DNA of 63,531 nucleotides, counting the filler, from Globobulimina sp. (taxonomy: Eukaryota): the NCBI GenBank assembly GCA_003354225.1. It is 24 parts of 24 records of this genome, joined end to end, with 100 filler letters (N's around TTAATTAATTAA, not from the genome) between each part and the next. Parts side by side here need not be neighbours in the genome. Positions count along the whole stretch, not along the records: positions 26,523 to 29,074 come from PIVH01006028.1; 23 more parts are not named here. The stretch is one strand, 5' to 3'. Numbering within the stretch: the stretch's first letter is position 1; every line of letters starts with the position of its first letter. The notes below the pieces were generated by a model. It was not told where the DNA came from. It did not search any database and saw nothing but the letters and a program-made list of their open reading frames with translations. This document shows, in pieces, positions 2,654-31,356 of this stretch. A program made the position numbers and the translations under genes.

Positions 2654-2859
2654 TATAAATACTGCTTCTTTATATCAATAATAAAGTCATCATCGAGGAC
2701 GACACAATGATGCCAGCTCCAAATAGCATAAACAGGTACAAAGTACCAATAAGATACCCAAATAACGCAATAACTCAGCAATACTATCAAGCGTCAAACA
2801 GTCAAATAATATATGCTGTCTATATGTGTGTTGTGTTTTGTTTTCTTCCCATAATAATA

Positions 2860-5090
2860 TTATTTCCTATTTCCAACTGTGGGAACATTATCTGTGACAG
2901 TGACAGGAACTAACTCCGTTGTCTTTGCATGTGGAGCATCCTTTGGGATTGGATTAAATTGCTTGATATGTGGTGTTGCCTGCGGCCTTAATTTTGCATG
3001 TCTCGATTTGCCCGAAGCCAAATGTACAACGCCAGTCGCTGCTTTTCTATTTTTCATTGGTTTGAGTGCCGCGTCTTCGCCATCCATGCCATCGTCATCA
3101 GACTGGTCAACAGTGCTCGATGACAATCCCGATCCGCCTCTACCAAACACGGTCATGGCATGTCTCGTTTTTTTATCCTTTATCGCATATCCTTGCTTAT
3201 AATCGATAGCCACGCCGCCATGATCATGTTCATCCAATCCAGACCGCTCAATGTCTGCCGAGACCCGCAAAATGCCACAGAACTTCAACCACAAAAATAA
3301 GGCACCGATCCATAACACCACCCATAAAATGATGATAAACACTGCAAATATTTGCAAGCTTTAATACAAAAACAAAAATGCGCATTTTGACAAGTTGGAT
3401 TTATGCATATCACACTCACGAACTCCGTATCACAAATCCATGCAATATTTGCCGAAATCCAGCAGGTCAAACTGCTCTTTTTTGCTGTCACAATTCCGGC
3501 AATGAACTCCTTGCAACATCAACTACCTTAAGCGATATCCTTTGGTGGCATTGATCAACACAGCATTGTCCGGATACGTTACAGCAATATTCTCAGAACT
3601 CGCAAACAGGCCAACCGCCACAATCCCCCACATTCCACCACATCCATGAACTGCCCAAGCATCTGATCACAACACAGAAACACACAAACACTGCCTAACA
3701 AAGCACACAAACTGATACTGTACCTAAAGGATCGTCGACTTGAACCCGTTCCAAAAAGCGAGACGCAGTGTAATACACAATGGCGCCAAGCACACCAATC
3801 GCCAATGCGTCGCCAGTGTCCACCACAGCACACGGCGCAGTGATCGAGACCAAACCCGCTAAGATACCGTTACACACTCTCGGTAAACTGAAGTATCCCT
3901 CCAGTACACGGCCAGTGGTCGCAGCGGTAATACCGCCTCCAGCCGCGGCTAAGGTGGACGTCACAGCCACTTTGGAAGCAATGGCCATCACTCCATTGGC
4001 CGCCAAGGTACTGCCTGCGTTGAAGCCGTACCATCCAAACCATAGAATAAAAGTGCCCAACACCTGGAAAGGCACATTGTTGCCCAACGTGTGTTGCGAT
4101 TTGAGTGCTTCCCAATGTTTCAGCTCTTGTCGACTCAGACTATTCTTTGCTGTTTCTGCTGCAGCCCCAGCAGTGGCAGTGGCAGCGTCTGCTTGTGGCC
4201 CTGTTGCGGTTTGTGCCGCAGTGACCTGCTCATATTTGAATCTGTTGATCCGTGGACCCAACATGACTGCGCCCAGTAAGCCGCTCCAACCGCCCACCAT
4301 ATGCACCACACCGCTGCCGGCAAAGTCGATGACGCCGCCTGCGAAGTGAGCGTCGGGGTTGAAAGGCGAGAGCCAGCCATGAGAGGACCAAAACCAATGT
4401 ACCACGACAGGGTAAACCCACACTGTCAGCACGATTGTGTACGTAAAATAGCCAGACAACGAACAGCGTTCAGCTACGGAGCCAGACACAATTGTTGCTG
4501 CAGTCTGAAGATGGAAACAAAGTGCATTAATGCATGCGGATATATATAATGAATGGAAATGTTAGTTTTTTAACTGCAGCAAAAGCCCATTGGAAAAAGA
4601 ATGAGTTCCATTGGATGGGCGTGGCGGATAAGGCGACATTGTGGCAGCCAATGAATCCATTTATGGAACAGGCACCGTCGCCGTATGCCACTGCGTAGCC
4701 AAATAAATAGAATCCAATGGCCCCAACACAGGCATCCATCATGTTTTTGAATAAGATATTCTGAACGTTGCCGATTTTGACAGATCCAGCTTCCAACATT
4801 GTGAATCCAGTCTGCATGAAAAATACCATGGCTCCGGTGATGAGCACCCATAAATAATCTAAATCGAGCGCGTTTGCGATGGAACCATAGAATGGATTGT
4901 CGCACGAGTCGCAGGTTTGGGGCACTTCCTCGACGTCGAATTTGGAGGTATCGACACATAATGTTGCTAGCTGCGATGTGTTGGAATATGCATCGATTAC
5001 TTGGAAGCAAGACTCAGTCGGTGGTTGAGCTTTTATTGTGTTTGATATTGAGAGTGACAAAGTGCAGAGAATGAGGAATAACCAAGACAT
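2860..5090 (-). CDS. amt: Ammonium transporter (Amt family), 4 exons
   Basis: Motifs FFMQTGFTMLEAG, FFQWAFAA|TAATIVSG, DFAGSGVVH, LWFGWYGFN, NGILAGLV, DDPL|DAWAVHG and LRVS..E..GLD..DHG. Introns at 4574..4505, 3723..3663 and 3526..3359 keep the frame. Confidence 0.95.
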
Positions 5091-5657
5091 TCTTTTTGAG
5101 TGACACTGAGCTTACAAGATTTTGTATTTAATTTAGACAATGGCAAACATCTTTTAATTCGCTTGTGGATCTTTTACGCCATTGATTAATGAACCCAACA
5201 ACGAGANNNNNNNNNNNNNNNNNNNNNNNNNNNNNNNNNNNNNNNNNNNNTTAATTAATTAANNNNNNNNNNNNNNNNNNNNNNNNNNNNNNNNNNNNNN
5301 NNNNNNTCATTGTACTTTGTTGGAAAATATATTGTAGTTTTACTGTACTGATTGTACTTACTGATTGTTGAAAAATATATTTATTCCAATTTAATTGTGA
5401 TGCAATGCTAAATATTATGATTAAAAGTAGCATAATTTCAAAACTAATTCTTGTCCATTTTAAGCAACAGCAGTCAATCTTTGTCCGCATGACTTGTTGA
5501 CTATGTTTTGGATGTGTTTTTGTGTTGGTTCGACTGCGACATGATTGGATGTCGGACATTGTTGGTCGGCATTATTGGAAAATCCTTGCATTGATTTTAG
5601 GGAAAAAAATAATAATTTATCATAATAAAATTATAATATATAAATAGTACTTTTGTT

Positions 5658-26232: not shown

Positions 26233-26756
26233 AGTGATCATGATTTAATACGTCGATTATTTGTTGTACAGTTGTACTTTTGTAATTTTGTGTAATTTTG
26301 TGAATCGTATCAAAACATAAGCAGGGACACCATGTTTTGCAAAGACTCTCACCCTATACTTTTGTTTTAAAAAGACTGTTTTTGTCAAAATCATGTCGTC
26401 GATCCCCTTCGTTTCAGAACCTNNNNNNNNNNNNNNNNNNNNNNNNNNNNNNNNNNNNNNNNNNNNTTAATTAATTAANNNNNNNNNNNNNNNNNNNNNN
26501 NNNNNNNNNNNNNNNNNNNNNNTAATGACAAATAACATAGAATTATCACCATGTTCAGGTTTGAGTTAAGCTAGAAAAAAACTTCTAAAGTACTCAATAT
26601 TTGACAAGAGACTCATTTGAAGGCAAACTTTACAAACGCGGAAAGTTCAATAAAGGATGGAAATAACGGTTCTTTGTATGTTAAAAGTTTTTCTCATTGG
26701 CTTCCATTTGAATTAATTACCAGCAAAAAACATATGTTACATAGATCATGATCAAA

Positions 26757-27758
26757 TTATAGATTTTGTTGAAGAATCTGGTTTCTGACTTTTGTGATTG
26801 CCTTTCCTAACAAATTTAATCCTTTCCAATTCCGTTTGTGTTTTGCCGCCGGATCAGTGACAGCCAAACCAATTCCCCATATTCTATCTGCAGCCGAGGC
26901 TTCGACAAAATATACACTTTTATCATAACTCAAGAGTTTATTTTTCAGACTCTCGTTTTGTGTAAATTTTGCCAAATTCCCTTTGTAAACAATTTCTTGA
27001 CGATGAGCAATCCATATTTTTTCTTTAAAGCCAGAAACCCTCCGACCGAGTTTCATAATTTTGCTCGGATCCTTTTGCAATAAAATCAATTCCAAAGACT
27101 CCCCATCTTTGAATAATTTCGCTTTTTCAGCCATCATAAATTGCTCACAATTCTCATATTTAATATTATCAATCACAAATTTTGAAGGGAACCATTGACT
27201 GAAGACATCTTTGTAAAATAATACATATTTATCGGTCACCACTGCATCTTTTACATAATGTTTGTAATTATATGCAACAAAATAATCATATCCATCTTCA
27301 TCCGTCTTATTTTCATTATTTTTAACCATTTCATTCCGCCTTTTCTTTTTTTTCTTATTTTCATTTTTTTCCTCTTCCACACAATTTTGTTTTTGATTTT
27401 GATTTTTTAAGTCATTTAGGTATGAAATACATTCATATATCGGCATTGAACCTGATTCTTTTAGATATTTCTTGTAAATATTATTTAATTTTGATGCAAG
27501 TTTTTGTAAAAACGTTTTGGAATATTTTTCAATGCTTTTTGCATTGTTTGCTACTGTGATATTTACCGTGTTATCATTTGATTTGGCAAATCTTGTTTCA
27601 ATGGTCTTTGTTTTCGTGATGCATATGACACAAATGATTATCAATTGATTGGTAGTTATTGTCACTTGTGCTTGATCTGGATACACTGCCTTAATGGTTT
27701 CCATTTCTTGTTCAAATTCTTCATCAGTATAAATATACATATGGCTTGAATATGACAT
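26757..27758 (-). CDS. NADAR (YbiA/DUF1768) protein with RWD-like N-terminus
   Basis: FSQWF, CEQFMMAEKA.LF.D, KLGR, KFTQN, VEAS..DRIWGIGL and GLNLLG are NADAR motifs. EEFEQEMETIKAVYPD...IYECISYL resembles RWD. Confidence 0.9.
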   Translation of the reverse strand: MSYSSHMYIYTDEEFEQEMETIKAVYPDQAQVTITTNQLIIICVICITKTKTIETRFAKSNDNTVNITVANNAKSIEKYSKTFLQKLASKLNNIYKKYLKESGSMPIYECISYLNDLKNQNQKQNCVEEEKNENKKKKKRRNEMVKNNENKTDEDGYDYFVAYNYKHYVKDAVVTDKYVLFYKDVFSQWFPSKFVIDNIKYENCEQFMMAEKAKLFKDGESLELILLQKDPSKIMKLGRRVSGFKEKIWIAHRQEIVYKGNLAKFTQNESLKNKLLSYDKSVYFVEASAADRIWGIGLAVTDPAAKHKRNWKGLNLLGKAITKVRNQILQQNL

Positions 27759-27817
27759 GACGTTTCGAGATACAAAGGTACAATAAATTTACATTTTAAG
27801 TGAAAAACAATTTTGTA

Positions 27818-29074
27818 ATGGCGGAAGGTTCAGATTCGAAATCCTCCCACAATGCACCAGATTTGCTTCAAACATCCGGACTCGGTCAATTAATGTCTAT
27901 TTTAAAAGGCCATCTTGACTTAATGCAGGAGAAAGAGGCTCATGTTGATAGTGTAATTAAATCCTCTCAAAGCAACGAATTATTGCATCAGGCAAAAAAT
28001 AAAGCGTTACAAAACGAAAAAGAATTATTATTAGGCATTATGAATGATATTGGTGAAATGAGCAATTTCTTAAATGATATAATATTAATTGAAAACTTAT
28101 TCAATAACAAATTTTCGGATTTAAAACAAGAGCAAGAAACCGCCAGAAACACATTTGCTAAAAATATATTCAAATATGAAAATAAAGCCAAACCCAGAAA
28201 CAATGTAAAATCATTTGTAGAGTTAGTATTTGGCGGCCAAACTCATATTAGTTCCTTGCAAACCTGGCTGGACAAATTAGTGCGGCAATGCAACAAAGAA
28301 AACATTGAAATAATATCTCAAACGGGTGCCTGTTGCAAGAAAATCGAGCGAGCCTTTTATAAATCATTTTATGTCTATTTAAAGGATGATGGCTATAATG
28401 ATATGACGGATGTAATGCGATGTTCGTTGGTATTTGACAATTTTGCCGCTATTTACAAAACGTTTTCCATTATGGAGCTGATGGCGGATGAAACTGTTGG
28501 CGGTTTGTTGAGAGTGAAGGACAGATTCCATCCGGAAACAATGCCATTCGGTTATAGAGATTTAATGATTAATGTATACTGTCCCGGCGCCAAAATTATT
28601 TGTGAAATTCAGCTACATCATAAATTATTTTATGATTTGAAGAAAATCTCACATAAAATGTATAAACGAGCGAGGCTGTTCGAAAGGAAAGAGACGAATT
28701 TAGCTTATCAGTATGCGACAAAGTATATGCGTCCAAAAATTGGAAAATTAAAAGTATACCAAACTGTAGACAGTGATTATGATAACGACGAGGATCAAAA
28801 AGAACAAGTTGTAAAATTTGGGGCGTTGTTGAAAATGTGGGGGCTGCAAAAATATACTCAAACATTCGAGGATGAGGGTTGGGATGATGTTGGTATGTAA
28901 TGTATCATATAAAATATATAATTAATTAACTCACAAATAATATCACTGTATATACAGCTGATTGGCATGAATTGGTTGATGACGATTTAAAGGCAATGAA
29001 AGTATGTTAAATGATATCCGATTGAAAATATTACAGATTGTTTTTGTTTTTTTTGATCCATTCAGTTGGCGACA
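27818..29074 (+). CDS. RelA/SpoT-type nucleotide synthetase domain plus C-terminal SAM domain (introns; 3'-truncated)
   Basis: KKIERAFYK, TDVMRCSLV, RVKDRF...GYRDLMINV and CEIQLHH correspond to Syn1-4. SAM LLKMWGLQKYTQTFEDEGWDDV|ADWHELVDDDLKAMK|LAT is spliced over introns 28893..28957 and 29002..29065. Confidence 0.8.
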
Positions 29075-29174: not shown

Positions 29175-31356
29175 TTGGCGGTGTATTTGTAGGTGATAAT
29201 GATGGTATCTTTGTAGGCGATGATGATGGCTTATTTGTCTGTGTTAATGATGGTATCTTTGTTGGTGTTAATGAGGGAGTATTTGTCGGTGTTAATGATG
29301 GCTTATTTGTAGGTGACATTGAAGGAATCTCTGTAGGTGATAATGACGGTATCTCTGTAGGCGATAATGATGGCTTATTTGTCGGTACATTTGTGGGTGT
29401 TAATGACGGAATATTTGTTGGATTGGATGTTGGTTTATTGGATGGTGAATAAGTTGGATATTTTGTGGTAGACACGTTCGGATTGTTTGTTGGAAACGAG
29501 GTTGGATTCGGAGTAGTGGTTGGTATTGACGCTGGATTTGTTGTTCTGGTTGGTATTACTGTTGGTATTACTGTTGGTATTACTGTTGGTATTACTGTTG
29601 GTATTACTGTTGGGCTGGTTGTTGTTCTGGTTGGTGATTTGGATAGGAATGGTGTCGGACTTTGTGTTGGCAGCGTAGGCGATTCTGTTGGCGCCGGAGT
29701 CGGATCATAAGTGTTTCCGCCAGTTAATGGGTTGCGAGTAGGTGAGGGTGTACACCATTGATTGCCTAAATCTTGTCCGATAACATTATCACAATCACAA
29801 TTATTTAGCTCATTTGCATAAATACAATTGGATAAACAATCTAATTTGGCAATCTTACTGCAACCAATGCATTGACTGTAATTTGTATCTTTATAATACC
29901 AAATGTCACATCGTTCTAATTCTGGGCCACCATTAACAAGCCATTGGTTACCATCATAATAATAATGATTTTCTTTGCATTTTAAGTTATAATCGCCTTC
30001 GTAATCTGACCACCACCAATCAATCCATTCCGTACCAAAATAATAACTGCCTTCTTCGGGAAGACGGAAGAATTTGTCTCGGGTTGTCTTACAAATAAAA
30101 GAGTACGGCTCACACGTTTGTTGAGGCGGGAAATGATTGGAAACAAACATGACTGACCACGAATTAATACTAAATCCATTCACAATATCACCATTATTAG
30201 AAACTGCTACTTCCATTTCATTGGCAGCGCCATCATATAAACTATAACAAGCCACTGGTTTTTCAGTGCGATTCACAGAATAAAATTCCAACATTAATGT
30301 AAAATATTTGCCATCCGGATGATAATCATCCACAACAATTTTCGTTCTTTCATCAAAATGAGCGCCAGAAGCTAATGGATAAGAGATTTCTTTTGTAAAT
30401 CGAGAATATACCGTATCAACGCCATTCATTCCCGCCACAAAACCAGCTCCCTGATAATCATATTTCTTTGCAAATATTGTTTCGCAATGACCATCAGTAT
30501 AACACGTATTAGCACCGCAAATGCCTTCCGATTCAAACCAACAACGATCTTCTACGCAAAAAGCACTCGCTCTGTGACTAAAAGAACAGCTCGCAAAAAA
30601 ATCACAATGTGACCCACCACCATATTCTGGTAACACCCAATCACTAAATGAAGCATATATAATTATATATTATTTATAATTGTGTATGAATTTCAAACAT
30701 ACCATGTAAAATGTGCAGTTATGCCAGGTTCCTCATACCACGATTGATTGCATGAATTTTCATCGTATTGTTTGAATCTGGCTGCTTGGTTTGCGTCAGA
30801 ATACCAATATAATGGGGATTTACCGGCCCTAGCATTGCCACAATATTCACAGTTGGGACACCAATATGTTCTGCCCGCCCTCTCATTTGCTCCAAATACC
30901 CATTTCCCCCATTTAAGTTCCAATGTATGGTTGGCAAACATTCGAAATAACTGCATATCATATTCGATATTCGTATTAATTTATATTGGTTTGCAAACAT
31001 GTCCGCAGATATATTTATATTGTTTATCGACACATACGTTATGGAATGTTTGTTGAACTTTTTCTTCACTATTTGGAAATGCAGATAATTCTCCTCCTGG
31101 CGGAAACATTGGGCATATTCCGCGAAAATAGCACTATTATATTATTTTCAAATGTTATTATATTATATCATGCATATTATTGGTAAATTAAATATTGATA
31201 TTTCTTAACTGATGGATTGACATCAATCATATTATATGGTAGATTTTTCCCGCCAGTAAATTTGTTCAATGTGCCTGGATATGATATGGGTAATCCACCA
31301 TAAACAATATTCAATACTAACTGGGAAATATAAATCATCAGCAAGTGAGGAACCAT
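29175..31356 (-). CDS. Secreted Cys-rich protein with CAP/SCP-like domain and mucin-like TxxP stalk, multi-exon, 3'-truncated
   Basis: Signal-like MVPHLLMIYISQLVLNIVYG. Spliced PLYWYSDANQAARF...SFSHRA...ESEGI...GHCETIF..KYDYQGAGF. Long (P-T/S-x-x)n tail. Confidence 0.6.
29550..29612. repeat. 12-bp coding tandem repeat (PTVI)n
   Basis: TGGTATTACTGT repeated about 5 times, within broader 24-bp-period PS.SPT repeats. Confidence 0.9.

What the first reader, a model, noticed from the sequence alone, without database searches (positions are those of the whole stretch)
26757..29074. Head-to-head eukaryotic pair: RWD-NADAR and RelA/SpoT-synthetase-SAM
Seen: on one contig the ATGs (27758 minus, 27818 plus) are separated by only 59 bp, and the synthetase gene has spliceosomal introns. 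Known: NADARs hydrolyse N-glycosidic adducts and act as antitoxins that reverse DarT1 guanine ADP-ribosylation. Small alarmone synthetases act as toxins in bacterial TA and anti-phage modules, and SAM domains oligomerise. Inference: a co-regulated nucleotide-signalling or toxin/antidote module in a protist, assembled from bacterial conflict-system domains and eukaryotic adaptors. I know of no description of this pairing.
Basis: partly seen in the sequence, partly recalled or inferred. Interest (0 to 1): 0.8.

Follow-up and report, generated by a model that had tools for sequence, protein, structure and literature searches.

The report
Foraminiferal RWD-NADAR and RelA/SpoT-SAM neighbours
Two real, back-to-back genes of a foraminifer encode an RWD-NADAR hydrolase and a very divergent RelA/SpoT-type enzyme with a SAM tail, but nothing found so far shows that the two work together as a toxin and its antidote.

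Summary
On one 2,552-base contig (26523-29074), the two start codons at 27758 (-) and 27818 (+) lie 59 bp apart. The plus gene has two GT..AG introns, and both are seen spliced out in contigs of other sequencing runs.

The domain calls hold too.
- The minus gene is RWD + NADAR. Pfam scores NADAR at 1.5e-43. It is YbiA-type, not DarT1-type.
- The plus gene gets no Pfam RelA_SpoT hit. Its predicted fold, however, matches solved Rel, RelP, RelQ and CapRel synthetases (Z up to 14.1). Sequence relatives reach PF04607, the catalytic motifs align with E. coli RelA, and a SAM domain follows.

The plus gene belongs to a large family seen mainly in foraminifera, with many fusions: ubiquitin, WW, kinesin, lectins and others.

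The toxin/antidote reading is not supported.
- 0 of 91 family members examined carry NADAR or RWD.
- 0 of 153 genes flanking the closest bacterial NADARs are RelA/SpoT. Instead, 18 of the 153 are NAD/ADP-ribose genes.
- Known NADAR partners are ADP-ribosyltransferases, and known toxSAS antitoxins are not NADARs.
- No conserved linkage was found, though synteny could barely be tested.

Most likely these are two independent genes sharing a short divergent promoter region.

The parts
26757..27758 (-). RWD-NADAR gene: a single exon of 333 codons plus the stop codon (26757-26759)
   Evidence: Full-length orthologues are P0046 (57% identity) and P0047 (Nonionella stella, 51%). Run X5 has a transcript-like contig covering 26702-27751.
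27411..27722 (-). RWD domain (residues about 13-116)
   Evidence: Pfam PF05773 scores 19.5 bits for this protein, below the cut-off of 22.8. The two orthologues pass, at 25.1 and 30.4 bits.
26775..27209 (-). NADAR domain, YbiA type (residues 184-328)
   Evidence: Pfam PF08719 scores 149.3 bits against a cut-off of 35.1. TIGR02464 scores 135 bits against 73.7, whereas the anti-phage NADAR model NF053876 scores only 26.7 bits against 240. The Glu in 'VEAS' is invariant in all 14 aligned NADARs.
27759..27817 (.). 59-bp spacer between the two start codons, presumably a shared divergent promoter and 5' UTR region
   Evidence: Read directly from the sequence. An identical 1,352-base contig of X1 bridges it. 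No X5 transcript-like contig crosses it.
27818..28892 (+). Exon 1 of the RelA/SpoT-like-SAM gene (358 codons plus one base)
   Evidence: Taken. 43 relatives were found, with E-values down to 3.6e-134.
27857..28207 (+). N-terminal helical domain (residues about 14-130), function unknown, with a conserved FLxDIIxIENxF motif
   Evidence: The AlphaFold2 model is all-helical here, with pLDDT of 86-97 from residue 21 onwards. The only Pfam match is a weak one to L544_helical, E 0.0065.
28208..28765 (+). RelA/SpoT-homologue (RSH) synthetase-fold domain (residues about 131-316)
   Evidence: - Foldseek gives 46 PDB matches at E<=1e-3, led by Rel, CapRel, RelP and RelQ.
- VIA-align gives Z 14.1 over model residues 131-315 against B. 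subtilis SAS2.
- Relative P0254 passes PF04607 at 33.6 bits.
- The motifs align with E. coli RelA.
28808..29074 (+). SAM domain, split by two introns and cut off by the contig end
   Evidence: The family profile matches solved SAM domains, with Caskin-1 at 1.1e-7. Homologues pass PF00536. X5 continues with letters that translate to ...GHMKKFW.
28893..28957 (+). Intron 1, 65 nt, GT..AG
   Evidence: The spliced joint is present in contigs of X5 and X8. An unspliced X1 contig covers 28672-29029.
28958..29001 (+). Exon 2 (44 nt)
29002..29065 (+). Intron 2, 64 nt, GT..AG
   Evidence: The X5 loose end behind 29001 continues with the bases found at 29066-29074.
29066..29074 (+). Start of exon 3; the gene runs off the contig

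Best explanation
This is a genuine divergent gene pair in the nuclear genome of a foraminifer.

The minus gene encodes an RWD adaptor domain fused to a YbiA-type NADAR hydrolase. NADARs cleave ribosyl-amine N-glycosidic bonds, for example in ADP-ribosyl-guanine and in riboflavin intermediates.

The plus gene encodes one member of a large, highly divergent RelA/SpoT-homologue (RSH) synthetase family whose close members are foraminiferal. It has an N-terminal helical domain, an RSH nucleotidyltransferase core with the catalytic motifs kept, and a C-terminal SAM domain. It most likely transfers pyrophosphate from ATP to the 3'-OH of a purine nucleotide or an RNA end. SAM-mediated self-association probably controls its activity or location.

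Shown: the gene structures, the domain and fold identities, splicing, and the family's expansion and fusions. Inferred: enzymatic activity, the acceptor substrate, and the role of SAM.

The two genes most likely share only a short bidirectional promoter region. Co-regulation is possible, but no biochemical coupling or toxin-antidote relation is indicated.
For: Gene pair and introns.

NADAR and RWD:
- NADAR scores 149.3 bits and TIGR02464 scores 135 bits.
- RWD passes in both orthologues.

RSH fold:
- The model has pLDDT 85 and pTM 0.81.
- All 24 displayed Foldseek PDB rows are RSH-type synthetases or their unnamed homologue smu.1046c.
- The top 29 of 50 VIA rows are the same group, Z 14.1-8.5. 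Unrelated nucleotidyltransferases follow at Z 8.2 or less.
- Phage RelA/SpoT and Tas1 models are the top viral matches.

Sequence link:
- The family profile finds P0254 at 1.5e-27.
- P0254 passes PF04607 in the same region at 33.6 bits. Six more of the 37 proteins scanned hit below the cut-off.

Motifs against E. coli RelA:
- D198 aligns with D275.
- R232-V-K-D aligns with E306-F-D-D.
- G245-Y aligns with G318-Y.
- E263-I-Q aligns with E335-I-Q.
- H279xxYK aligns with HWKYK.

Family size and hosts:
- 97 representatives score at E<=1e-30.
- Named members come from Bolivina, Elphidium and Nonionella.

Against coupling:
- 0 of 91 family members carry NADAR or RWD.
- 0 of 11 metagenome loci with relatives hold a NADAR.
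- 0 of 153 ORFs flanking 80 bacterial NADARs are RelA_SpoT, while 18 of 153 are PARG, NrtR-Nudix, Macro, ARH, TNT or Tpt1.
- The passages read name ADP-ribosyltransferases (DarT1, YarT) as NADAR partners.
- The passages read name SAH, GepA and unknown proteins as toxSAS antitoxins.
Against: - A 59-bp ATG-to-ATG spacer is very tight. It is the tightest of the few candidate divergent pairs in this window, so shared regulation is likely and a functional link cannot be excluded.
- Synteny was essentially untestable. Foraminiferal relatives come from transcriptomes or short contigs, the window's genome is not held, and the contig of the one genomic orthologue, P0046, could not be fetched.
- Both proteins act on nucleotides, and both families are used in conflict systems elsewhere. 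The NADAR also matches PADLOC candidate PDC-M42C at 155 bits.
- P0002 itself gets no PF04607 hit.
- hhalign against RelA alone gave only 1.95% probability.
- Enzyme activity is untested.
Confidence: 0.6

Rival explanations
1. First reader's model. The pair is a co-regulated nucleotide-signalling or toxin/antidote module. The SAM-oligomerised RSH enzyme makes a toxic or signalling pyrophosphorylated nucleotide, or modifies RNA. The RWD-tethered NADAR reverses or buffers this.
For: - The start codons are 59 bp apart and head-to-head on one contig.
- Transcript-like spliced contigs of both genes are present in the same run, X5.
- Bacterial RSH enzymes can be toxins with enzymatic antitoxins.
- NADARs can be antitoxins.
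- The physiological roles of eukaryotic NADARs are unknown.
Against: - NADAR chemistry is hydrolysis of ribosyl-amine bonds, and its known partners are ADP-ribosyltransferases. That does not reverse a 3'-pyrophosphate.
- This NADAR is the YbiA type, not the DarT1-linked type.
- 0 of 153 bacterial NADAR neighbours are RSH.
- tblastn with 9 RSH queries found none within 6 kb on either side in 80 loci.
- 0 of 91 RSH family members are fused to NADAR or RWD.
- The RSH family is large and has dozens of architectures, so any single neighbour may be there by chance.
- No second linked instance was found.
Confidence: 0.1
2. The genes are co-regulated but biochemically independent. Both belong to a stress or nucleotide-damage response and are driven together by one bidirectional promoter, without acting on each other's substrates.
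For: - The spacer is too short for two separate promoters.
- Both genes are represented by transcript-like contigs in X5.
- The passages read describe YbiA-type NADARs as damage-control or DNA-damage-linked enzymes.
- RSH enzymes are stress-signal makers in bacteria and plastids.
Against: There are no expression data across conditions, and contig depth cannot rank genes. The typical intergenic distance in this genome is unknown.
Confidence: 0.25
3. The junction is an assembly chimera, or one of the genes comes from a contaminant.
For: The assembly is highly fragmented, with 2.55-kb contigs. The only contig that bridges the junction comes from run X1, which may be the source data.
Against: - An independent assembler's 1,352-base contig is identical across 26804-28155.
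- Base composition is uniform and no repeat lies at the junction.
- The nearest relatives of both genes are foraminiferal.
- Both genes occur at 99% or higher identity in X5, a run from another study.
Confidence: 0.03

Closest known systems
Small alarmone synthetases RelP/RelQ (SAS1/SAS2) and the synthetase domain of Rel/RelA/SpoT
   Same: They share the fold: Z 14.1, rmsd 3.5 A over 157 residues against B. subtilis SAS2, and Z 10-13.5 against Rel, RelA and SpoT. The catalytic Asp, the Gly-Tyr loop, the E-x-Q strand and the H-x-x-Y-K motif are aligned, and the site of the long-RSH RXKD motif reads RVKD.
   Different: - Identity is only 12-23%, and the Pfam RelA_SpoT model does not hit this protein.
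- It carries an extra conserved N-terminal helical domain and a C-terminal SAM.
- It is eukaryotic, intron-bearing and part of a large paralogous expansion.
- The residues after E-x-Q are His-His instead of Arg-Thr.
- Product and acceptor are unknown.
Divergent eukaryotic SAS ('divRel') of Dictyostelium, Aspergillus, Gibberella and diatoms (Atkinson et al. 2011, PMC3153485; passages read)
   Same: These are also synthetase-only RSH proteins in eukaryotes outside plastid RSH and Mesh1. More distant relatives of the present family include a Guillardia theta protein. The Atlas search also points, as a lead only, to diatom clusters.
   Different: Foraminifera, SAM fusion and the many other fusions are not mentioned in the passages read. 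Whether the present family is related to those divRel sequences was not tested.
toxSAS toxin-antitoxin systems (FaRel, FaRel2, PhRel, CapRel; Jimmy et al. preprint 10.1101/575399; passages read)
   Same: The catalytic fold is the same. CapRel scores Z 11.1-11.3 and FaRel2 scores Foldseek E 1.5e-3. A neighbouring gene is proposed as the neutraliser.
   Different: - Those are conserved bicistronic bacterial or phage operons.
- Their antitoxins are SAH hydrolases, GepA/DUF4065 proteins or proteins of unknown family, not NADAR.
- Here the pair is divergent and eukaryotic, and its conservation is not shown.
- PADLOC has no match for P0002.
YbiA-family NADARs (E. coli YbiA; Phytophthora nicotianae NADAR; Schuller 2023 PMC11543638 and Cihlova 2024 PMC11125620; passages read)
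   Same: Pfam and TIGR02464 both match strongly. The YbiA-type Glu is present. Identity to free-standing bacterial NADARs is 45-53%.
   Different: This protein carries an N-terminal RWD domain and a Lys/Asn-rich linker. That architecture appears in only 2 of the 120 listed relatives, P0046 and P0047. RWD does not occur in the text of Cihlova 2024.
DarT1-NADAR and YarT-YbiA toxin-antitoxin pairs
   Same: A NADAR hydrolase sits next to a nucleotide-modifying enzyme.
   Different: In those pairs the partner is an ADP-ribosyltransferase, and the NADAR removes its ADP-ribose mark. Here the partner is a pyrophosphokinase-fold enzyme, and no ADP-ribosyltransferase lies on the contig.

Membership tests
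RelA/SpoT homologue (RSH) synthetase superfamily | Synthetase (nucleotidyltransferase) fold shared with solved Rel, RelA, SpoT and SAS structures | tested here: met
   The model has pLDDT 85. Foldseek gives 46 matches at E<=1e-3, and all 24 displayed rows belong to this group. In VIA-align the top 29 rows belong to it, Z 14.1-8.5, covering model residues 131-316. The next fold scores Z 8.2.
RelA/SpoT homologue (RSH) synthetase superfamily | Match to Pfam PF04607 (RelA_SpoT) at the gathering score | tested here: not met
   P0002 has no PF04607 hit at E<=1. The link is transitive only. P0254 matches the family profile at 1.5e-27 and matches PF04607 at 33.6 bits, above the cut-off of 27. Six further relatives of the 37 scanned score 17.8-26.0 bits.
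RelA/SpoT homologue (RSH) synthetase superfamily | Conserved catalytic and substrate motifs: Asp strand, K-D / RXKD site, Gly-Tyr loop, E-x-Q strand, H-x-x-Y-K | tested here: met
   A MAFFT alignment through 19 intermediate relatives, and hhalign, both place D198, R232-V-K-D235, G245-Y246, E263-x-Q265 and H279-x-x-Y-K opposite RelA D275, E306-F-D-D309, G318-Y319, E335-x-Q337 and HWKYK. D198, K234, D235, G245 and Y246 are at least 90% conserved in the family. Which RelA residues are catalytic is recalled, apart from the EXDD/RXKD and 'DY' statements read. hhalign probability was only 1.95%.
RelA/SpoT homologue (RSH) synthetase superfamily | ATP-dependent pyrophosphate transfer to a 3'-OH | not testable with these tools
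   This needs an enzyme assay.
toxSAS toxin-antitoxin module | Conserved adjacency of the synthetase gene with its neutralising gene | tested here: inconclusive
   No second linked instance was found. 0 of 11 metagenome loci hold a NADAR. No RSH relative found sits on a contig as long as that of P0046 (4,988 bp). However, the foraminiferal data are transcriptomes or short contigs, and the window's own genome is not held.
toxSAS toxin-antitoxin module | Toxicity of the synthetase that depends on its active site, and rescue by the neighbour | not testable with these tools
   This needs expression tests.
NADAR (PF08719), YbiA family | NADAR domain match, and the YbiA-type glutamate in the last strand | tested here: met
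   PF08719 scores 149.3 bits against 35.1. TIGR02464 scores 135 bits against 73.7. E286 in 'VEAS' is invariant in all 14 sequences. The Glu criterion comes from Cihlova 2024. Its mapping to E286 is my inference.
DarT1-associated NADAR (BC4488 family) antitoxin | BC4488-type catalytic Asp, match to the anti-phage NADAR model, and an adjacent DarT1 | tested here: not met
   NF053876 scores 26.7 bits against a cut-off of 240. No ADP-ribosyltransferase lies on the contig, which holds only two genes. Association with DarT is reported as exclusive to BC4488.
RWD domain (PF05773) | Match to the Pfam model at the gathering score | tested here: inconclusive
   P0001 scores 19.5 bits, below 22.8. Its two full-length orthologues score 25.1 and 30.4 bits over the aligned region.
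SAM domain (PF00536) | Match to SAM models or solved SAM domains | tested here: met
   The family profile matches Caskin-1 SAM at 1.1e-7, and 8 distinct SAM-domain sequences score at E<=1e-3. Homologues P0004, P0011, P0013, P0043, P0166 and the L001 protein pass PF00536. In the window the domain is split by introns and cut by the contig end, so P0002 alone gives no hit.

The most novel reading that the evidence does not exclude
The divergent pair is a eukaryotic nucleotide-conflict or signalling module of a new kind. A SAM-oligomerised RelA/SpoT-type pyrophosphokinase marks a nucleotide, NAD/ADP-ribose derivative or RNA end. The RWD-tethered NADAR, expressed from the same 59-bp bidirectional promoter, resets or detoxifies that mark. 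This would join two enzyme families that are not linked in any system described so far.
Probability: 0.07. Interest if true: 0.8.

Novelty: new variant of a known kind. Interest (0 to 1): 0.4.

Why it matters
Outside plastids, RelA/SpoT-type synthetases are rare and poorly understood in eukaryotes. This locus shows that foraminifera hold a large family of very divergent RSH-fold enzymes that standard Pfam annotation misses. The catalytic motifs are kept, and the domain is fused to SAM, ubiquitin, WW, UBA, 14-3-3, kinesin/EF-hand, lectin and transporter modules.

If these enzymes are active, foraminifera may run an alarmone-like or RNA-modifying pyrophosphorylation system wired into typical eukaryotic adaptors. 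That can be tested directly with recombinant protein.

RWD-NADAR is also an undescribed architecture for a family whose eukaryotic role is still open.

The specific claim that made the finding striking, a toxin/antidote pair, is not supported by anything found here.

Tried and rejected
- Complex prediction of the two proteins was not folded by the tool.
- The window's own genome is not held. Paralogue pairing and genome-wide intergenic distances could therefore not be examined.
- A viral-contig scan with the family alignment found no relative among 97 pattern matches.
- No RNA holder was listed for the stretch. X5 and X8 are of unknown or guessed kind, and their spliced contigs are what suggests RNA.
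- phmmer of P0002 against PDB sequences gave only chance-level hits.
- The family profile against PDB sequences found only SAM domains and no RSH.
- hhalign of the family against E. coli RelA alone gave 1.95% probability. It was used only for where the motifs fall.
- A home-made HMM of the catalytic core found nothing in the 80 bacterial NADAR loci. It also missed the E. coli RelA control, so that negative result is worthless.
- tblastn with RelA and 8 RSH-family proteins (P0002 among them) found nothing in those 80 loci. It would miss divergent SAS.
- The ESM Atlas scores were all below 0.9, so they are leads only.
- Matching contig lengths between RSH hits and NADAR hits gave no coincidence. 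This is a crude check. 'Longer' RSH forms were not checked this way.
- The search of earlier findings returned nothing.
- I considered that the N-terminal helical domain might be a degenerate HD hydrolase domain of long RSHs. VIA rows against Rel mostly align only model residues 131 onward, and no conserved His-Asp motif appears among the conserved columns. The domain was not folded and searched on its own, so this stays open.
- My recollection that 'fpRel' meant fungi/protists was wrong. It stands for Firmicutes/Proteobacteria.
Full report
**What the window is.** The 63,531-base window is not one molecule. It consists of 24 contigs of 2,550-2,553 bases joined by runs of N around TTAATTAATTAA. 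The finding lies entirely on one contig, 26523-29074, with GC 0.32. No whole genome is held for the window.

**The observation.**
- The minus strand carries an open frame from ATG 27758 to the stop at 26757-26759 (333 aa, P0001).
- The plus strand carries a frame that opens at ATG 27818 and stays open to 28897.
- The two ATGs are separated by the 59 bases 27759-27817.
- In-frame stops at 27789-27791 and 27797-27799 bound both frames.
- The N-termini agree with those of foraminiferal relatives, so these start codons are the likely ones. A second Met at codon 7 of P0001 would widen the spacer only to 77 bp.

**Reads and introns.** Contigs of four public runs were laid on the contig.
- Run X1 has a 1,352-base contig with no differences that spans 26804-28155 and so bridges the spacer. 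X1 may be the source sample, so this is a second assembler's agreement, not independent DNA.
- X1 also has an unspliced contig over 28672-29029.
- Runs X5 and X8, from two other studies, carry a joint that skips 65 bases with GT..AG ends (intron 1, 28893-28957).
- X5 continues after 29001 with letters that begin with the bases at 29066-29074. This defines intron 2 (29002-29065) and adds ...LATGHMKKFW to the protein.
- The X5 contigs stop at 27751 and 27835 and none crosses the spacer, as expected for two separate mRNAs.

**The minus gene.**
- Pfam gives NADAR at 1.5e-43 (149.3 bits, residues 184-328). RWD scores only 19.5 bits, below its cut-off of 22.8.
- NCBIfam gives TIGR02464 (riboflavin-intermediate N-glycosidase domain) at 135 bits against 73.7. 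The anti-phage NADAR model scores 26.7 bits against 240.
- Of the 120 relatives listed (408 at E<=0.001 among 2,194 candidates), only two cover the whole protein. These are P0046 (57% identity, from a 4,988-base ENA contig) and P0047 (Nonionella stella). The rest are NADAR-only proteins, most about 185 aa long and many bacterial.
- Both full-length orthologues pass the RWD model, at 25.1 and 30.4 bits. The RWD-NADAR architecture is therefore real and conserved in at least one other foraminifer.
- P0001 keeps every column that is invariant among the 14 aligned NADARs, including the Glu of 'VEAS'.
- According to the passages I read in Cihlova et al. 2024 (PMC11125620), a Glu in the last strand marks the YbiA family, an Asp marks the BC4488 family, and only BC4488 is linked to DarT1. 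Mapping that Glu to E286 is my inference.
- Passages of Schuller et al. 2023 (PMC11543638) state that eukaryotic and other non-DarT NADARs also hydrolyse guanine-ADP-ribose. They also state that YbiA cleaves riboflavin intermediates and that the physiological targets of free-standing NADARs are unknown.

**The plus gene: fold evidence.** P0002 (exon 1, 359 aa) has no Pfam RelA_SpoT hit and no significant sequence match to PDB chains. It has 43 relatives at E<=0.01, with E-values down to 3.6e-134.
- An AlphaFold2 model built on 23 aligned sequences is confident, with pLDDT 85 and pTM 0.81.
- Foldseek against the PDB gives 46 matches at E<=1e-3. All 24 displayed rows are Rel, RelA, SpoT, SAS1, SAS2/RelP, CapRel, FaRel2, a 'GTP pyrophosphokinase family protein', or smu.1046c, whose title gives no name.
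- VIA-align puts 29 such entries on top. They run from Z 14.1 (B. subtilis SAS2, rmsd 3.5 A, 157 residues, model 131-315) down to 8.5. RsfS (8.2) and TdT/pol mu (about 7) follow.
- The viral library gives phage RelA/SpoT proteins, Tas1 and a Fadolivirus 'relA/spot' nucleotidyltransferase.

**The plus gene: sequence evidence.**
- A profile of the family finds 1,928 representatives at E<=1e-3, some through SAM alone. Of these, 296 score at 1e-10 or better and 97 at 1e-30 or better.
- Of 37 representatives scanned, 7 hit PF04607 at E<=0.01, and P0254 passes the gathering score (33.6 bits against 27) in the same region that matches the family profile.

**The plus gene: motifs.** Two alignments agree on where the motifs fall against E. 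coli RelA. One is a MAFFT alignment through 19 intermediate relatives. The other is a statistically weak hhalign (1.95% probability).

| P0002 | E. coli RelA |
|---|---|
| D198 | D275 |
| R232-V-K-D235 | E306-F-D-D309 |
| G245-Y246 | G318-Y319 |
| E263-I-Q265 | E335-I-Q337 |
| H279-K-M-Y-K | H-W-K-Y-K |

- The site of R232-V-K-D235 corresponds to the EXDD/RXKD site. Here it has the RXKD form that Atkinson et al. describe for Rel/SpoT (passages read).
- D198, K234, D235, G245, Y246, R247 and D248 are at least 90% conserved in the family.
- That the Asp and Glu are the catalytic metal ligands and that the Tyr stacks on the acceptor base is recalled, not read here.

**The plus gene: SAM tail.** The C-terminal stretch is a SAM domain. 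The family profile matches Caskin-1 SAM at 1.1e-7 and many others, and several homologues pass PF00536.

**The family.** Named members come from Bolivina argentea, Elphidium margaritaceum and Nonionella stella. A distant relative is a Guillardia theta protein. The closest relative is an 80%-identical fragment, P0200. Members carry a wide range of extra domains:
- ZZ/C1, WW, UBA and SPRY;
- kelch and 14-3-3;
- ubiquitin, once together with a Hint domain;
- TLDc;
- galectin, ricin, C-type lectin, AbfB and FGF-like domains;
- choline-transporter-like domains;
- kinesin motor plus EF-hands.

None of the 91 family members scanned (37, 54) has a NADAR or RWD domain.

Atkinson et al. 2011 (PMC3153485, passages read) report divergent synthetase-only RSHs in Dictyostelium, some fungi and diatoms. 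They do not mention foraminifera or SAM in the passages returned. My literature searches gave the following:
- 'foraminifera' + 'ppGpp': 0 papers.
- 'NADAR' + 'RelA SpoT' + 'eukaryotes': 0 papers.
- A four-term search on RelA SpoT, SAM domain, eukaryotic and alarmone: nothing relevant among the 10 papers listed, of 28 holding at least three terms.

**Is the pair a module?** I looked for independent signs of coupling and found none.
1. Fusions: 0 of 91, as above.
2. Other loci: 11 metagenome loci encode relatives of P0002, four of them close, and none holds a NADAR by tblastn. The close ones are 1-3 kb contigs, so this is weak.
3. The one genomic contig known for the NADAR orthologue P0046 is 4,988 bases. 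None of the RSH relatives found in the 'near' and 'shorter' searches lies on a contig of that length. This too is weak.
4. Prokaryotic precedent:
   - Of 580 confirmed bacterial relatives of the NADAR domain, the best 80 loci were kept.
   - The nearest ORF on each side (153 ORFs) includes 0 RelA_SpoT domains. It does include 18 NAD/ADP-ribose genes: 8 PARG, 6 Nudix-NrtR, 2 ADP-ribosylglycohydrolases, and one each of Macro, TNT and Tpt1.
   - tblastn with RelA and 8 RSH-family proteins (P0002 among them) found nothing within 6 kb.
   - The NADAR clade closest to P0001 therefore sits in ADP-ribose/NAD contexts, not alarmone contexts.
5. Chemistry: the NADAR partners named in the passages read are ADP-ribosyltransferases (DarT1, YarT). 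The toxSAS antitoxins named are an SAH hydrolase, a GepA/DUF4065 protein and proteins of unknown family. 'NADAR' occurs 0 times in that preprint. Hydrolysis of a ribosyl-amine bond does not undo a 3'-pyrophosphate.

On the other side, the spacer is very short. It is the shortest among the roughly three other candidate divergent ORF pairs in the window, which are about 400 bp or more apart and unverified. Both genes also appear as transcript-like contigs in X5. Shared regulation is therefore plausible.

**Verdict.** The observation and the domain assignments are right. The functional inference is not supported, and also not excluded, because synteny and expression could hardly be tested.
- Most likely (about 0.6): two independent genes share a bidirectional promoter region.
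- About 0.25: they are co-regulated without a biochemical link.
- About 0.1: a true functional module.
- About 0.03: an assembly artefact.

The more solid and more interesting result is the gene family. It is a large, mainly foraminiferal expansion of Pfam-invisible RSH-fold enzymes with intact motifs and eukaryotic adaptor fusions. Supplementary tables of the papers cited were not consulted and might list eukaryotic sequences relevant to this claim.

Noticed in passing
window 1-63531: The window is a concatenation of 24 contigs of 2,550-2,553 bases, sorted by length. They are joined by N runs around TTAATTAATTAA, so no feature can be read across these joints.
   Followed up: yes
window 2654-5206: This contig has GC 0.458, against about 0.28-0.41 for the others. 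It holds overlapping ORFs on both strands. It may come from another organism or genome compartment.
   Followed up: no
window 29175-30669 (-): The neighbouring contig encodes a protein with a long Pro/Thr/Ser-rich repeat region (units like PT.IPS.SPT). A Cys-rich domain precedes the repeats in the protein. It looks like a secreted or surface mucin-like protein.
   Followed up: no
relatives P0202, P0182 (Nonionella stella): Some RSH-family members are the C-terminal part of kinesin-motor + EF-hand proteins of 1,016-1,991 aa (P0182 also has SAM). Other members have N-terminal ubiquitin: P0176, P0177 (which also has a Hint/intein-like domain), P0178, P0179 and P0225. Still others have choline-transporter-like domains (P0037, P0187, P0189, P0190, P0192).
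   Followed up: partly
L005:5836-7269 and L006:74-1507: A distant (about 30% identity) RSH-like 477-aa protein lies on AT-rich (GC 0.28-0.31), tightly packed metagenome contigs. Its neighbours include isocitrate lyase, a C5 DNA methylase, UDG, a SprT-like protein and an acyl-CoA dehydrogenase. The host could be a giant virus or an AT-rich bacterium and was not determined.
   Followed up: partly
window 28404-28445 and 27104-27150: Short conserved stretches of both genes also match other contigs in runs X1, X5 and X8, and those contigs then continue differently. This indicates further paralogues of the RSH family and of NADAR in these organisms.
   Followed up: no
L056, L062, L064, L067, L071, L086 (Paenibacillus): In Paenibacillus the closest bacterial NADARs sit between a Nudix-NrtR regulator and a microbial PARG. 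Elsewhere the neighbours are Macro + ADP-ribosylglycohydrolase (L061), a TNT-domain protein (L087) and Tpt1 (L091). This is a recurrent ADP-ribose/NAD neighbourhood for this NADAR clade.
   Followed up: partly
P0001 residues 185-328: The NADAR domain matches PADLOC candidate defence component PDC-M42C at 155 bits. This probably only reflects that the model is a NADAR.
   Followed up: no
window 27297-27382: The Lys/Asn/Glu-rich linker between RWD and NADAR is low-complexity. It attracts many unrelated short contigs in the laid runs (a depth spike), and X5 shows in-frame indels here: 21 bases left out and 24 put in.
   Followed up: no
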